Source: an uncultured Acidimicrobiales bacterium (lineage in GTDB: Bacteria; Actinomycetota; Acidimicrobiia; Acidimicrobiales; RAAP-2). From it: 64,000 nucleotides of DNA. The notes below the pieces were generated by a model. It was not told where the DNA came from. It saw nothing but the letters and a program-made list of their open reading frames with translations, and made no database searches. The translations under genes were made by a program, and so were the position numbers. How positions within the stretch are numbered: position 1 is the stretch's first letter; each line of letters starts with the position of its first letter. Shown piece after piece: positions 4,927 through 23,796 of this stretch. The DNA is taken from contig CAVRYH010000013.1 in NCBI GenBank assembly GCA_963725395.1, forward strand, positions 163,720 to 227,719. Reading direction: 5' to 3'.

Positions 4927-5289
4927 CTACGCCGAGACGAAGCTGATGATGAGCCCCGCCGCCGCCAGCCCCAGGGTGCCGATGGTCATCAACCGACACG
5001 CCGACGTGTCGAGGGACCCGGCGTCGGCACGGCCCGAGTTCGAGCGACCGATGTTCACCGCGACGGTCCACAGGGTGGCCCCGGCGGCTCCGACGGCGAG
5101 GGCGGCCACCGCCTTGTTCCCGGTGAGCGGCCAGAGATGACGGATGATGATGGCCACGGTGACCGCCACGGCCAGGCCCGACCGTGTCCAGGCCAGCTGG
5201 GTCCGCTCCCGGACCGCACCCGGGTCCTGCACACCGAGATCGTCGGAGGCACCTTCGTTCCCCTTCCCCGAACCTGCCCCGACCCTCAC
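4927..5289 (-). CDS. DUF202 (YidH-like) membrane protein
   Basis: This is the C-terminal 120 codons of track ORF 4927..5673. The GTG at 5289 overlaps the upstream stop as GTGA. The RERTQLAWTRSGLA motif plus 3 hydrophobic helices match DUF202. The rest of the track ORF is Arg/Pro-rich shadow. Confidence 0.6.
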   Translation of the reverse strand: MRVGAGSGKGNEGASDDLGVQDPGAVRERTQLAWTRSGLAVAVTVAIIIRHLWPLTGNKAVAALAVGAAGATLWTVAVNIGRSNSGRADAGSLDTSACRLMTIGTLGLAAAGLIISFVSA

Positions 5290-20941: not shown

Positions 20942-21016
20942 GGTGTCCTTTCGGGAGCCGGCCCATGTTGGCAGATCCGACGGGCGCAATCCGCCCCCCG
21001 CCCGACGCACGAGCCC

Positions 21017-22084
21017 TCAGCCAGTAGCCGACCCACCACCGAAGAGGTTCAGCTGCGGCTCGTCCACGGGTCCCAACCGGTGGTACCCGGGGAGGTCCGC
21101 CATGGGCGTGTCCAGGTACACCTTGGCCTCGGGGGGATGGGCGAACCGACCGTGACTCCACCTGATCTCCACGTGGCCGGCGACGGATGCCGGCTGTCCG
21201 TCCCGGCGGCAGCGGTAGGTGCAGGACCAATCGACCCGGGGTTGGCCGGCCTCTCCGGGGGCGATGGTGAAGGCCGAGAGTTCGAACTGCTCACGCCAGT
21301 CCCACGGACTGGCGATCCGGTAGCGGGCCGGCGCTCCGCTGCGGCGGTCGACACCCAGCACGAAGTAGGGGGCACTGCCGATCCGGAGCAGGCGCCAGAG
21401 CATCACCTCGTCAGTCGCCCCCGACGATTCGAGGCTCGTCGCCCACCGCTCCGCCGAGGCGGCGCTGACGGCGCGACACAGTCGGGCGTACGCCGCCCGC
21501 GAGGCGGCGTCGGGGTACGACCGACCCCCGAGGGCGGCGCGGATCGAGGCGAGCTGCTCCTTCGTGCACCCGGAGGGCTCGGACGGGAAGCCGACCAGTC
21601 CTGTGGCCGTAACACAGGACCGGAAGAGCGATCCGAGCTCGGCCGGTGCCACGACCTCGTACCAGTCGCCGCGCTCCCAGTCGCCGCTCGTGGCGAGCAG
21701 CCCGTCGAAGACCCGGCCCGGGGAGGCGTTGGCCAGGATGTCGGACTCGTACTTGCAGCTGACCAGGTAGACGTGGTCGATTCGCAGGTCGATGGGGGCC
21801 ACCTCGTCCCCCGGCGCCCGGCGCCCACCGGTCCACTCGATGATGAGCGGGGTGCGGCCGCGTAGACCGTCGGGCGCCTCGAGCAGCGCACGGCCGTTGG
21901 CGAAGGCCGTGCCCAACTCGGTCGAGTACCGGCCTGATCGTCCGATGCGCCCGAGGTCATCCCATGTCTCGGCCCCCACCCGGATCTCGGGTGGACGATG
22001 GGCGATGGCCGAGTCCGGGTCGCCGAACGGGAGTGTCCCGAGCGCCGTCCCGAGCTCGGTCACCATGGTCCGCTCGTCAGGCAC
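21017..22084 (-). CDS. hypothetical protein, candidate PD-(D/E)xK-type nuclease partner of the adjacent methyltransferase
   Basis: This 355-aa ORF has normal composition and lies 24 nt downstream of the methyltransferase gene. The segment APIDLRIDHVYLVSCKYES resembles a PD...(E/S)xK nuclease core. I recognise no other family. Confidence 0.4.
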   Translation of the reverse strand: MPDERTMVTELGTALGTLPFGDPDSAIAHRPPEIRVGAETWDDLGRIGRSGRYSTELGTAFANGRALLEAPDGLRGRTPLIIEWTGGRRAPGDEVAPIDLRIDHVYLVSCKYESDILANASPGRVFDGLLATSGDWERGDWYEVVAPAELGSLFRSCVTATGLVGFPSEPSGCTKEQLASIRAALGGRSYPDAASRAAYARLCRAVSAASAERWATSLESSGATDEVMLWRLLRIGSAPYFVLGVDRRSGAPARYRIASPWDWREQFELSAFTIAPGEAGQPRVDWSCTYRCRRDGQPASVAGHVEIRWSHGRFAHPPEAKVYLDTPMADLPGYHRLGPVDEPQLNLFGGGSATG

Positions 22085-22108
22085 CGAGCGCGCGCTCCGA
22101 CGGCGGGG

Positions 22109-23587
22109 TCATCCGCGGGTTGAGCCGCCCGAACCGTAGGCGCGCAGCCGGTGCATGGACTCGGGGTCGAGCAGCTCGAGGACATCGTGGACCGGACCGG
22201 AGCCATCGGGGCCGGTCACCGCCCGCAGCGCCTTCCCCCCAGCCGTACGGGCACCGGGGACCTCCGTGGAAAGGAGGACGAGGGGGCCGAGGTCGTCGCG
22301 GCCGGGATCGCTCCCTCGGGCCTGATGGAGGACGCTGGCCTTGCCCAAGGCCTTCAGCAGCACATCCGGACGCCGAAGGCCCGGCCGGGTCGTCGAGTAG
22401 GCACCCGAGAGGTCGAAGAGCCAGCAGTGTCCCTTGGCGTCCCGCGCCCGGAAGTCGACGGCGATGCCCAGGTCCCCATAGGCCACATTGGGCTCGATGC
22501 CCTCGAACCCGCTGGCCTCGAGGGCCTGGTGGGCCAGCTGGCGGGCCTTCTGGCCGAGGCCCACGGCGTCGGCGTCGACCGCTGCGGACCCGGTGGGGGG
22601 GACGGTGACCCGCCGGTCGAGCCCGGGGTCGGGTGCGGGCACGGCGGCCCGCTCGCGGGCCACCCGGTCGAGGGCCAACGCCACGTAGGCCTCGTCGGTG
22701 TCGAAGCCGACGAAATGGCGCTCGGTGCGGACGGCGGCGACGGCCGTCGATCCCGAGCCCATGAACGGGTCGAGGACGAGATCGCCACGGTAGGTGTAGA
22801 GCTCGATGAGCCGCCGGGGCAGCTCCACTGGGAACGGTGCCGGGTGGCCGACTCGGGTTGCGGACTCGGTGGGGATGTCCCAGACGTCGAGGGTGGCATC
22901 AACGAACTCGTCCATCGTGATGGTTCCCTCGCACGGGAGGCCCTGGACGGCACGCTCGCCGGCGGTGAGGGCCCGGTCGAACCGGCCTTTCGACGCCACG
23001 ACGATTCGCTCGCTCACGTCACGCAGGACAGGATTGCCCGGCCGTTGATACGTTCCCCACGCGCACGAACCTCCCGCGGCGCGGCTCTTCTGCCAGATGA
23101 TTTCCCCCCGTAGGAGGTAGCCCTGGCCCTCGAGCAGGTCGATGACGTCCCTCGACAGCGAGCGGTAGGGCTTGCGTCCCAGATTGGCCACGTTCACAGC
23201 GATGCGACCGCCGGGTTCGAGCTTGTCGAAACACTGAGCGAAGACGGCGTCGAGCATGCCCAGGTAGGCGTGGTAGTCGGCGGGGACGTGACCGACACCG
23301 AGCGCAGCCTCGTACTCCTTCCCGGCGAAGTACGGCGGTGACGTGACCACCAGAGCCACCGAATTGTCGACGATGTCGCCGTGCCGGTTCATGGCGCGGG
23401 CGTCCCCGGCCCAGACCGTGTCCAGCGCGGTGGGCCGATTGATGTCGCTGTCGTCGGACAGGAGCGGTGGGGTGAAACGGGCGTAGAACGGCGAAGAGTC
23501 GTGGGCCTCCCGCCGTCCGACGCCGAATGACGAGGTAGAGGTGGGCCGACGTCGGGGAGCCCGGCGGATGGGCTCGACGTTGCTCAT
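22109..23587 (-). CDS. beta-class N4/N6 DNA methyltransferase (SPPY motif) with about 170-aa C-terminal extra domain
   Basis: Motif IV VVTSPPYFAGKEY precedes motif I LDPFMGSGSTAVAA, the beta-class order. Start set at the ATG at 23587 (MSNVEP...); the track ORF starts 10 codons earlier. The C-terminal region (..GIAVDFRARDAKGHCWLFDLSGAY..) is not part of a standard methylase core. Confidence 0.8.
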   Translation of the reverse strand: MSNVEPIRRAPRRRPTSTSSFGVGRREAHDSSPFYARFTPPLLSDDSDINRPTALDTVWAGDARAMNRHGDIVDNSVALVVTSPPYFAGKEYEAALGVGHVPADYHAYLGMLDAVFAQCFDKLEPGGRIAVNVANLGRKPYRSLSRDVIDLLEGQGYLLRGEIIWQKSRAAGGSCAWGTYQRPGNPVLRDVSERIVVASKGRFDRALTAGERAVQGLPCEGTITMDEFVDATLDVWDIPTESATRVGHPAPFPVELPRRLIELYTYRGDLVLDPFMGSGSTAVAAVRTERHFVGFDTDEAYVALALDRVARERAAVPAPDPGLDRRVTVPPTGSAAVDADAVGLGQKARQLAHQALEASGFEGIEPNVAYGDLGIAVDFRARDAKGHCWLFDLSGAYSTTRPGLRRPDVLLKALGKASVLHQARGSDPGRDDLGPLVLLSTEVPGARTAGGKALRAVTGPDGSGPVHDVLELLDPESMHRLRAYGSGGSTRG

Positions 23588-23796
23588 CGCGGGCCGGACC
23601 CGTGGTCGGTGGTCCATCGCGTCGGGGAGGCCGTCGGTTGTGCGGGCACGGGGCAGATCATACGGAAGGGTTGTGACGCGACGACGGGGTGCCGGTCGCT
23701 TGCCCTCGCATGGCTAAGGAGGCTAGCGGTGCCCCCGTTCCACCCAGGGGATGGGCTCAGCCGGGCGGTCGGGCATCGCTCCCCTCGCCGGCGAAC

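What the first reader, a model, noticed from the sequence alone, without database searches (positions are those of the whole stretch)
21017..23587. SPPY DNA methyltransferase with an extra C-terminal domain plus a 355-aa unknown: candidate restriction-modification or defence pair
Seen in the sequence: a beta-class methyltransferase with motif IV TSPPY before motif I FMGSGST. SPPY is the form usually associated with N4-cytosine enzymes. It carries about 170 additional C-terminal residues with a D..D.K-like stretch (VDFRARDAKGHCWLFDLSG). After 24 nt comes a 355-aa ORF with APIDLRIDHVYLVSCKYES.

Established knowledge: some type II endonucleases of the Cfr10I/NgoMIV group use an S-x-K variant of the PD-(D/E)xK motif.

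Inference: the 355-aa protein is the cognate nuclease or another effector. The methylase C-terminal domain may be a second nuclease-fold or DNA-binding module. No specificity subunit, helicase or control protein is present. The pair is embedded in an otherwise metabolic gene train.
Basis: partly seen in the sequence, partly recalled or inferred. Interest (0 to 1): 0.6.

Follow-up and report, generated by a model that had tools for sequence, protein, structure and literature searches.

The report
Chromosome-fixed methylase and putative restriction enzyme pair
Two adjacent genes, a DNA methyltransferase with an extra dead-nuclease-shaped tail and an uncharacterised 355-residue partner, most likely form a restriction-modification pair that has become a permanent, vertically inherited resident of a soil Acidimicrobiales lineage instead of a mobile defence island.

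Summary
The methylase (22109-23587, minus strand) is a beta-class SPPY enzyme. Its extra 168 C-terminal residues fold like a PD-(D/E)xK nuclease but lack conserved catalytic residues. The 355-aa partner (21017-22084) has no Pfam, NCBIfam or PDB sequence match. A confident model (pLDDT 93) finds no fold relative in the PDB, so the Cfr10I/NgoMIV analogy is not supported.

Three results favour a restriction enzyme:
- 32 of 48 family members weakly hit one PADLOC type II restriction-enzyme model through the conserved C-terminal motif E306..E319-x-K321.
- In 100 genomes of the genus, the partner occurs without a family methylase only once, in a 77%-complete genome. The methylase occurs without the partner 14 times.
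- Where the adjacent methylase is lost, a second family methylase sits elsewhere in the genome.

Against a typical mobile system, the pair is syntenic and near-core in the genus, and I found it on no plasmid or phage. The methylase stays under purifying selection after partner loss.

Cleavage, target site and methylated base are untested. The scan noted the same pair before in other Acidimicrobiia genomes (e1-3960649, e1-3854109, e1-3015907). Confidence in the restriction-modification reading is about 0.55.

The parts
22109..23587 (-). DNA methyltransferase gene (492 aa from ATG 23587; the longest ORF starts at ATG 23617 and gives 502 aa). Residue numbers in this report use the 502-aa ORF.
   Evidence: ORF list and sequence. 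Pfam N6_N4_Mtase E 1.1e-34. PADLOC MTase_II PDLC03350 E 1.6e-82. Best solved relative is TTHA0409, PDB 2zie, E 2.4e-30. It is the only PF01555 gene in the genome.
22673..23359 (-). Catalytic methyltransferase domain (residues 87-315), with motif IV TSPPY at 23330-23344 and motif I FMGSGST at 22745-22765. Motif IV precedes motif I, which is the beta-class order.
   Evidence: Pfam match coordinates. Motifs read directly from the sequence.
22112..22615 (-). C-terminal domain of the methylase (residues 335-502). It has a PD-(D/E)xK nuclease-like fold whose catalytic positions are not conserved, so it is probably inactive.
   Evidence: AlphaFold model pLDDT 86.7 with topology a-bbb-a-b-a-b. Foldseek PDB top hits are EndoMS 5gke (E 5e-3, prob 1.0), NucS 2vld, the R2 endonuclease domain, SfsA and Bse634I. 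In the alignment of 36 sequences, D54 and position 70 vary and the invariant columns are all Gly, Pro or hydrophobic. No Pfam or PHROG match.
22085..22108 (-). 24-nt spacer between the methylase stop and the partner's GTG start. In several relatives the two genes overlap by a few bases.
   Evidence: Sequence. In relatives such as L066 and L073 the methylase frame ends at 5008 and the partner starts at 5001.
21017..22084 (-). 355-aa partner protein, here called X355. It is a candidate restriction endonuclease of an uncharacterised family.
   Evidence: 2578 relatives. No Pfam, NCBIfam, PHROG or PDB sequence match. AlphaFold pLDDT 93.4. No PDB fold match. Two uncharacterised phage proteins match at E 3e-5 in BFVD. 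32 of 48 relatives hit PADLOC REase_II PDLC03456.
21752..21796 (-). Conserved motif P97-x-D99 ... In the model it lies on a beta hairpin.
   Evidence: Across 48 sequences: D99 in 47, S109 in 46, K111 in 46. Model strands 100-102 and 106-111.
21122..21169 (-). Conserved motif E306-x-R308-W-x-H311-G ... P318-E319-x-K321. This is a canonical acid...ExK pattern and is the stretch shared with the PADLOC restriction-enzyme model.
   Evidence: Across 48 sequences: E306 in 47, R308 in 48, H311 in 47, E319 in 47, K321 in 48. PADLOC matches map here, at profile positions 340-375 of 387. The only PDLC03456 match in the whole genome is at window 21107-21172, E 0.62.

Best explanation
This is a two-gene, type II-like restriction-modification pair that has become fixed in the chromosome.

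The upstream gene encodes a beta-class amino-methyltransferase. Its SPPY motif points to N4-methylcytosine, but the methylated base is inferred only. It would mark a so far unknown target sequence on the host's own DNA.

The downstream, co-transcribed 355-aa protein would be the endonuclease that cuts DNA lacking that mark. It probably uses the conserved acidic and lysine residues E306/E319-x-K321, perhaps together with D99/S109-x-K111.

The methylase's extra C-terminal domain has a nuclease fold but seems to have lost catalysis. It most likely serves in DNA binding or as a structural module. It is not needed for the partnership, because variants without the tail also pair with the partner.

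Shown here: gene structure, domain folds, pairing, distribution, selection. Inferred: DNA cleavage, methyl protection, the target site, the methylated base.

The methylase has in addition acquired a value of its own, because it is kept after the partner is lost.
For: 1. Pairing. The methylase is directly upstream of X355 in 70 of 80 related loci and in 7 of 8 loci from other families. The context there differs, so the two genes move as a unit.

2. Link to a known restriction-enzyme model. 32 of 48 family members hit the single PADLOC model REase_II PDLC03456 (best E 2.6e-6). The hit always falls on the same C-terminal motif and in the same order along the protein. Across 401 genomes of the phylum, that model's only hit at E <= 0.01 is another X355 homologue.

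3. Asymmetric distribution in 100 genomes of the genus. The methylase tail is found in 91 and X355 in 81. Fourteen genomes have the methylase without X355, and two of three loci checked, which reach the flanking decarboxylase gene, show a clean loss of X355 at the same site. Four genomes have X355 without a tail-bearing methylase: at least one carries an adjacent tail-less methylase, and one is a 77%-complete genome with no family methylase found.

4. Compensation. Genomes where the adjacent methylase is gone but X355 stays intact (dN/dS 0.08-0.47) carry a second, unlinked family methylase of 53-58% identity in 4 of 5 tested. In the genus sample seven such genomes are seen, while only one genome with an intact pair also has that second copy.

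5. A different partner elsewhere. In another actinobacterial family the same methylase family is flanked by an unrelated 196-aa protein with a textbook E..D..D-x-K nuclease motif. Such partner swapping is usual among restriction-modification systems.
Against: - The window's own X355 matches the restriction-enzyme model only at E 0.62 over 22 positions. Relatives score 10-22 bits, mostly on a 25-35-residue motif, and they are not independent tests.
- A very confident model finds no nuclease, or any other fold, in the PDB. Profile searches find nothing either.
- The pair is near-core and syntenic across a genus with synonymous divergence near saturation. It has normal G+C, and I found it on no plasmid or phage. 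This is unusual for restriction-modification systems.
- The methylase stays under purifying selection without X355 (dN/dS about 0.2), so it has another role.
- No 4-6-bp palindrome is clearly depleted in genomes with the pair compared with methylase-only genomes.
- Where the PADLOC model came from, and whether its members were biochemically tested, I could not establish.
Confidence: 0.55

Rival explanations
1. The methylase is a lineage-conserved housekeeping epigenetic enzyme, comparable to Dam or CcrM. X355 is then a methylation-reading accessory rather than a defence nuclease. It could be a methyl-directed nickase like MutH, a binder of hemimethylated DNA like SeqA, or a regulator.
For: - The methylase is present in 39 of 40 high-quality genomes of the genus and in 21 of 26 genomes of another family.
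- It stays under purifying selection after X355 loss.
- X355 is a subset of the methylase-bearing genomes and still works when unlinked, as mutH does with dam.
- Inheritance is vertical and syntenic, and I found no mobile-element copies.
- The genus lacks both MutS and NucS in the genomes searched.
Against: - The genes are tightly adjacent, with the methylase first and sometimes overlapping, which is typical of restriction-modification.
- The PADLOC match is to a type II restriction-enzyme model.
- A MutH-like role needs MutS and MutL, which were not found.
- Fourteen genomes dropped X355 and, in those tested, have no NucS either. X355 therefore does not fill an essential repair gap.
- Two relatives in the same order have both NucS and X355.
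Confidence: 0.2
2. The methylase itself is a fused restriction-modification enzyme whose C-terminal PD-(D/E)xK domain is the nuclease. X355 is then a specificity, regulatory or unrelated subunit.
For: The tail has a clear restriction-endonuclease-like fold. Foldseek top hits are EndoMS/NucS, Bse634I, SgrAI and McrC.
Against: - The canonical catalytic positions are not conserved. D54 varies, position 70 (where the Lys should be) is S/A/Y/C/P/W/V/T, and no charged residue is invariant.
- Tail-less methylases still pair with X355 in G010, and an unlinked tail-less one occurs in G330.
- The tail-bearing methylase is often found alone.
Confidence: 0.05
3. X355 has a function unrelated to DNA methylation and is merely a conserved neighbour in an operon.
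For: No recognised nuclease or DNA-binding domain, and no fold match. The flanking genes are metabolic.
Against: - The two genes travel together into different genomic contexts in other families.
- X355 is found with a family methylase even when unlinked.
- The metabolic neighbours are not conserved outside the genus.
- The motif is shared with a restriction-enzyme model.
Confidence: 0.1

Closest known systems
Orthodox type II restriction-modification systems with beta-class N4-cytosine methyltransferases (for example PvuII, BamHI; named from general knowledge)
   Same: Two genes only. The methylase has the motif order IV before I and an SPPY-type motif IV. A separate small nuclease candidate sits next to it, and there is no helicase or specificity subunit. 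In distribution, the nuclease candidate is not found without a family methylase, while the methylase can stand alone.
   Different: The nuclease candidate has no detectable fold relative in the PDB. The methylase has an extra nuclease-shaped tail. No controller gene is present. The pair is vertically inherited and near-core in a genus rather than strain-variable and mobile.
PADLOC-DB model PDLC03456 (REase_II, 387 positions)
   Same: Similar length. The match runs in the same order along both sequences and covers the C-terminal motif G-H-V-E-I-R-W-S-H-G...P-E-A-K-V-Y-L-D. 32 of 48 X355 relatives hit it, with a best E of 2.6e-6.
   Different: At most about 95 of the 387 profile positions align. 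The window's own protein reaches only E 0.62. X355 is at best a distant sister family. Which named enzymes lie behind the model is unknown to me.
TTHA0409 putative modification methylase of Thermus thermophilus HB8 (PDB 2zie)
   Same: It is the closest solved structure to the methyltransferase domain (E 2.4e-30, residues 70-323).
   Different: TTHA0409 is 297 aa and has no counterpart of the C-terminal 170 residues.
EndoMS/NucS C-terminal nuclease domain (PDB 5gke, 2vld) and other PD-(D/E)xK domains
   Same: They share the fold and topology of the methylase tail (Foldseek prob 1.0, TM about 0.44).
   Different: There is no sequence-level match: the NucS_C Pfam model finds nothing in the genome. 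The catalytic triad is not conserved in the tail.
Cfr10I/NgoMIV/Bse634I group with the S-x-K active-site variant
   Same: X355 has a conserved P-x-D ... S-C-K stretch on a beta hairpin.
   Different: X355 shows no structural similarity to these enzymes. The spacing is 12 residues rather than about 50 (the latter figure from general knowledge). The Bse634I and SgrAI fold hits belong to the methylase tail.
Dam with MutH/SeqA, and CcrM (conserved solitary methylases with or without methyl-reading partners; general knowledge)
   Same: The methylase is near-core in a lineage and is kept without the partner. The partner is restricted to methylase-bearing genomes.
   Different: The partner is usually adjacent and possibly translationally coupled. 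No MutS was found. No evidence of methyl reading.

Membership tests
Type II restriction-modification system | A DNA methyltransferase with intact catalytic and AdoMet-binding motifs | tested here: met
   Pfam PF01555 E 1.1e-34. PADLOC MTase_II E 1.6e-82. TSPPY and FMGSGST are present.
Type II restriction-modification system | A linked gene encoding a recognisable endonuclease | tested here: inconclusive
   32 of 48 relatives hit PADLOC REase_II PDLC03456 at low scores, but the window's protein reaches only E 0.62. There is no PDB fold or sequence match. Two conserved acid..x-K motifs are present.
Type II restriction-modification system | The nuclease gene is not maintained without a protecting methylase, while solitary methylases occur | tested here: met
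   In the genus, 14 genomes have the methylase only. X355 without any family methylase occurs only in one 77%-complete genome. When the adjacent methylase is lost, an unlinked family methylase is present in 4 of 5 genomes tested, and also in G330 and G027.
Type II restriction-modification system | Cleavage of unmethylated target DNA and protection by the cognate methylation | not testable with these tools
   This needs biochemistry or methylome data. A test for palindrome avoidance gave no clear candidate site.
Type II restriction-modification system | Patchy, horizontally mobile distribution (typical, not strictly defining) | tested here: inconclusive
   Patchy at phylum scale, 9 of 401 genomes, and found in foreign contexts in other families. 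Within the genus it is syntenic and vertical, and I found it on no plasmid or phage.
Beta-class N4-cytosine DNA methyltransferase | Motif IV (S/D)PP(Y/F) lies N-terminal to motif I FxGxG | tested here: met
   TSPPY is at residues 92-96 and FMGSGST at 285-291 of the 502-aa ORF.
Beta-class N4-cytosine DNA methyltransferase | Methylation of the exocyclic N4 of cytosine | not testable with these tools
   SPPY is usually linked with N4-cytosine enzymes (general knowledge). The solved relatives include both N4-cytosine and N6-adenine enzymes.
PD-(D/E)xK nuclease superfamily (methylase C-terminal domain) | Core a-bbb-a-b fold | tested here: met
   Model topology. The top Foldseek hits are dominated by PD-(D/E)xK proteins.
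PD-(D/E)xK nuclease superfamily (methylase C-terminal domain) | Conserved catalytic D ... (D/E)-x-K residues | tested here: not met
   The strand-2 Asp and the Lys position vary across 36 sequences. The invariant residues are all Gly, Pro or hydrophobic.
Cfr10I/NgoMIV-type restriction endonucleases (X355) | Structural similarity to Cfr10I, NgoMIV or Bse634I | tested here: not met
   None of these enzymes appears among the listed Foldseek PDB matches of the pLDDT-93 model; the best E is 0.05 and the hit is unrelated.
PADLOC REase_II PDLC03456 family (X355) | Significant match over most of the profile | tested here: not met
   Matches cover 22 to 95 of 387 positions and score 10-22 bits. This supports a distant relationship, not membership.
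Methyl-directed repair pair of the Dam/MutH kind | MutS and MutL partners present in the genome | tested here: not met
   The MutS_V domain was not found in this 94.65%-complete genome, although the control genomes ring. MutL was not searched.

The most novel reading that the evidence does not exclude
The pair is not a defence system. It is a housekeeping, methylation-based DNA-transaction system of a lineage in which neither known mismatch-repair route, MutS/MutL or NucS, was found. A near-core methylase, fused to a NucS-shaped but inactive domain, marks the DNA. X355, a protein with a fold not represented in the PDB, reads or nicks according to that mark.
Probability: 0.1. Interest if true: 0.8.

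Novelty: new variant of a known kind. Interest (0 to 1): 0.42.

Why it matters
If the reading is right, there are three consequences.
- X355 defines a restriction-endonuclease family with at least 499 clusters at 50% identity. It is found in at least 597 species genomes, and its confidently predicted fold has no solved relative. That makes it a good target for structure and specificity work, and possibly a new enzyme reagent.
- The pair is a clear case of a restriction-modification system that has turned into a stable, vertically inherited chromosomal resident. Its methylase has gained a role of its own.
- The reciprocal-loss pattern is a natural experiment in addiction and compensation. The methylase is lost only where a second family methylase exists, whereas the partner is lost freely.

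If the minority reading is right, it would point to an unknown methyl-directed DNA function in actinobacteria where neither MutS nor NucS was found.

Tried and rejected
- **Sequence and profile searches of X355** against Pfam, NCBIfam, PHROGs and PDB sequences found nothing. This included scanning all 48 alignment members.
- **Foldseek of the X355 model against the PDB** gave only spurious low-TM hits such as Tn5 inhibitor, lipocalins and SnoaL. The viral library gave two uncharacterised phage proteins at E 3e-5, which say nothing about function.
- **Profile-profile comparison of X355** with the methylase tail and with the 196-aa partner of the other family found no homology, at probabilities 0.2 and 0.07. 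A suggestive single-sequence alignment did not survive the profile test.
- **Longer proteins that might be domain fusions of X355** turned out to be read-through or frameshift products, joined either to the neighbouring class I methyltransferase or to the DNA methylase. They are uninformative.
- **Plasmid and phage collections** contain no copy of X355 or of the methylase tail.
- **Palindrome avoidance** was compared between G000 plus two genomes with the pair and two methylase-only genomes. No site is clearly depleted when X355 is present. CAGCTG scores 0.82-0.88 against 0.95-0.99, which is within noise. CTAG and CGCG depletion is general. The result is inconclusive.
- **In-frame stops and split matches of X355 or the methylase** occur in several relatives. 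In G010 the stop is a frameshift near residue 30. These genomes are mostly few-contig assemblies in which neighbouring genes are split too, so I did not count them as pseudogenes.
- **Provenance of the PADLOC restriction-enzyme models** is not described in the two PADLOC papers I searched.
- **Literature searches** for a conserved actinobacterial N4-cytosine methylase, or for methylation motifs of Acidimicrobiia, found nothing specific.
Full report
**1. Observation**

Two co-directional ORFs lie on the minus strand. The first is 22109..23617, 502 aa. Its probable start is ATG 23587, which gives 492 aa, the same length as the database copy P0271. The second is 21017..22084, 355 aa with a GTG start, here called X355. 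A 24-nt spacer separates them.

The first protein has TSPPY (residues 92-96) ahead of FMGSGST (285-291). It matches Pfam N6_N4_Mtase over residues 87-315 (E 1.1e-34) and PADLOC MTase_II PDLC03350 (E 1.6e-82). Its closest solved relative is the 297-aa TTHA0409 (2zie, E 2.4e-30). It is the only PF01555 gene in the genome. G+C is unremarkable and the neighbours are metabolic or envelope genes.

**2. The methylase tail**

Residues 335-502 have no Pfam or PHROG match. They are nevertheless conserved in at least 165 database proteins, nearly all carrying the methylase domain.

I built an alignment of 36 tails from related loci (A2). It gave an AlphaFold model with pLDDT 86.7 and topology helix, three strands, helix, strand, helix, strand. 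The best Foldseek PDB hits are dominated by restriction-endonuclease-fold proteins: EndoMS 5gke (E 5e-3, prob 1.0), NucS 2vld, the R2 retrotransposon endonuclease domain, SfsA, Bse634I, Card1/Can2, Exo5, McrC and SgrAI.

The fold is therefore PD-(D/E)xK. The catalytic pattern is not kept, however. The strand-2 Asp (D54 of the tail) varies. The strand-3 motif reads D/E-x-(S/A/Y/C/P/W/V/T), with no Lys. Every invariant column is Gly, Pro or hydrophobic. I read the tail as a degenerate, probably non-catalytic nuclease-like module. This last step is inference.

**3. X355**

It matches nothing in Pfam, NCBIfam, PHROGs or PDB sequences. That holds even with a profile and when all 48 alignment members are scanned. 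The family is nevertheless large:
- 2578 hits at 90% clustering
- 499 clusters at 50% identity
- at least 597 species genomes; the best 80 loci are almost all Acidimicrobiales metagenome-assembled genomes from soil and peat, plus the cultured Acidiferrimicrobium sp. IK

The AlphaFold model is very confident (pLDDT 93.4, pTM 0.88). It shows an N-terminal helical bundle, a small sheet carrying P97-x-D99 and S109-C-K111, a long helical insert, and a C-terminal antiparallel sheet carrying E306-x-R308-W-x-H311-G and P318-E319-x-K321.

Foldseek finds no PDB relative; the best E is 0.05 and the hits are unrelated. In the viral library it finds two uncharacterised phage proteins at E 3e-5. The Cfr10I/NgoMIV analogy is therefore not supported structurally.

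Both motifs are almost invariant across 48 sequences: D99 in 47, S109 in 46, K111 in 46, E306 in 47, R308 in 48, H311 in 47, E319 in 47, K321 in 48.

**4. A link to a restriction-enzyme model**

I scanned the 48 family members against PADLOC-DB. Of these, 32 hit one model, REase_II PDLC03456 (387 positions), with a best E of 2.6e-6.
- The matches always place X355's C-terminal motif on profile positions 340-375.
- Some extend in the same order over profile positions 277-372.
- In the window's own genome, the only match of that model lies inside X355 (window 21107-21172, E 0.62).
- In 401 genomes of the phylum, the only match at E <= 0.01 is another X355 homologue.

The scores are low (10-22 bits) and the members are related to each other. 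I take this as moderate evidence of distant kinship with a catalogued type II restriction-enzyme family. It also suggests that E306/E319-x-K321 is the more likely catalytic motif. I could not establish how the model was built.

**5. Pairing and inheritance**

Within the genus the order BNR-repeat gene, methylase, X355, PLP decarboxylase is conserved. Identities are similar to those of the neighbours: X355 66-84%, methylase 71-86%, decarboxylase 78-90%. This indicates vertical descent.

Outside the genus the two genes recur together in unrelated contexts. X355 is patchy at phylum scale, in 9 of 401 genomes. I found no copy on plasmids or phages.

**6. Asymmetry of loss**

In 100 genomes of the genus, the tail-bearing methylase is found in 91 (39 of 40 high-quality genomes) and X355 in 81.

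- **Methylase without X355.** Fourteen genomes are in this state. Three such loci were examined. All keep the BNR-repeat gene directly upstream of the methylase and show no trace of X355. The two that reach the decarboxylase gene place it directly downstream, so X355 is cleanly absent there. The methylase remains under purifying selection (dN/dS 0.19-0.21, against 0.15-0.27 when paired).
- **X355 without the adjacent methylase.** In 8 of 80 related loci X355 sits directly after the BNR gene and the methylase is missing. X355 is intact there and under purifying selection (dN/dS 0.08-0.47).
- **Compensation.** Four of five such genomes carry an unlinked methylase of the same family (53-58% identity, tail included). 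The fifth is a 2.1-Mb partial genome.
- **Genus sample.** Seven genomes show this split state. Only one genome with an intact pair, which has 5% contamination, also carries the second copy.
- **Other split cases.** G330 and G027, which have X355 away from any methylase, also carry an unlinked family methylase.
- **X355 with no family methylase.** The only such genome is 77% complete.

This is the pattern expected of a nuclease that needs protective methylation. It would also fit any partner that depends on methylation.

**7. Partner swapping, and the tail is dispensable**

The tail-bearing methylase is much more widespread than X355. It is in 40 of 401 phylum genomes, against 9 for X355, and in 21 of 26 genomes of one other family.

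In that family, 11 of 26 genomes carry the gene for an unrelated 196-aa protein with invariant E22, D46, D49 and K64-E65-K66 plus near-invariant D62, a textbook PD-(D/E)xK signature. Where the loci were examined it lies directly upstream of the methylase, and a 115-aa gene follows the methylase.

In G010 a methylase without the tail pairs with an X355 variant. The tail is therefore not the docking site for X355.

**8. Tests that did not discriminate**

Palindrome avoidance gave no clear candidate target.

MutS was not found in the window's own genome. NucS was not found in that genome or in any of the 24 other genus genomes searched, although NucS is present in 9 of 16 other families of the order. 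This keeps a repair-related reading alive. However, two relatives have both NucS and X355, and genomes that lost X355 also lack NucS, so the complementarity is not clean.

**9. Verdict**

The most likely reading is a type II-like restriction-modification pair. Its nuclease belongs to an uncharacterised family, its methylase has a dead-nuclease tail, and the pair has been domesticated into the core chromosome of the lineage. My confidence is about 0.55.

The main rival is a housekeeping methylase with a methyl-reading accessory (0.2).

Earlier notes of this scan reached the same general reading on other Acidimicrobiia genomes. What is added here:
- the link to the PADLOC restriction-enzyme model
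- the reciprocal-loss and compensation pattern
- the selection analysis
- the evidence that the tail is degenerate and dispensable
- the alternative partner in another family
- the negative fold search

Noticed in passing
window 21010-21017 versus L013:8110-8690, L014:8122-8878: In close relatives a gene of about 190 aa for a class I SAM-dependent methyltransferase (motif LDAGCGTGR) lies between X355 and the PLP decarboxylase. It is missing from this window, where the two genes almost abut. This looks like a lineage-specific deletion.
   Followed up: partly
L150:5664-8189, L151:6663-9137, L155:6801-8941: In another actinobacterial family (f29) the same methylase family sits in a three-gene unit. 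Upstream is a 196-aa protein with invariant E22, D46, D49 and K64-E65-K66 plus near-invariant D62 (a canonical PD-(D/E)xK signature). Downstream is a 115-119-aa protein. Neither has a Pfam match. The methylase tail is found in 21 of 26 genomes of that family and the 196-aa gene in 11 of 26.
   Followed up: partly
G000 whole genome and 24 genomes of the genus: The NucS_C domain was not found in the window's genome or in any of the 24 other genus genomes searched, and the MutS_V domain was not found in the window's genome. NucS is present in 9 of 16 other families of the order. The genus may lack both known mismatch-repair routes. MutL and the NucS N-terminal domain were not searched.
   Followed up: partly
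L122:1250-1510 (G441:C311): The unlinked second methylase copy, in a genome with solitary X355, is preceded by a short ORF whose sequence (RIATAVRLPESIHHRLHQAALDRDISANLLVTRAVAEFLDRL) looks like a ribbon-helix-helix DNA-binding protein. It could be a controller or a remnant of a mobile element.
   Followed up: no
L027:8894-10809 (G010), also G472 and G497: A divergent version of the pair: a methylase that ends right after the catalytic domain (no tail), followed by an X355 homologue of 41-42% identity. In G010 the N-terminal 30 residues of that homologue are in another frame, which is either a frameshift or an assembly error.
   Followed up: partly
L055, L064, L066, L067, L071, L073, L074, L089 and others: Many relatives are few-contig assemblies in which housekeeping neighbours (PLP decarboxylase, CvpA-like gene) are split by frameshifts. 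Apparent pseudogenes in these genomes should not be trusted without the reads.
   Followed up: no
G000 whole genome: Ratios of observed to expected counts: CTAG is strongly under-represented (0.33), CGCG moderately (0.72) and CGCGCG more so (0.54). In two methylase-only relatives CGCG is lower still (0.42-0.54), while AGCT and AATT change from over-represented to under-represented or near-neutral.
   Followed up: partly
BFVD entries A0A8D9C8Y9 and A0A1J0F9H5: Two uncharacterised viral proteins of 517 and 571 aa are the only significant structural matches of the X355 model (E 3e-5, TM 0.36-0.42). The fold may also occur in phages.
   Followed up: no
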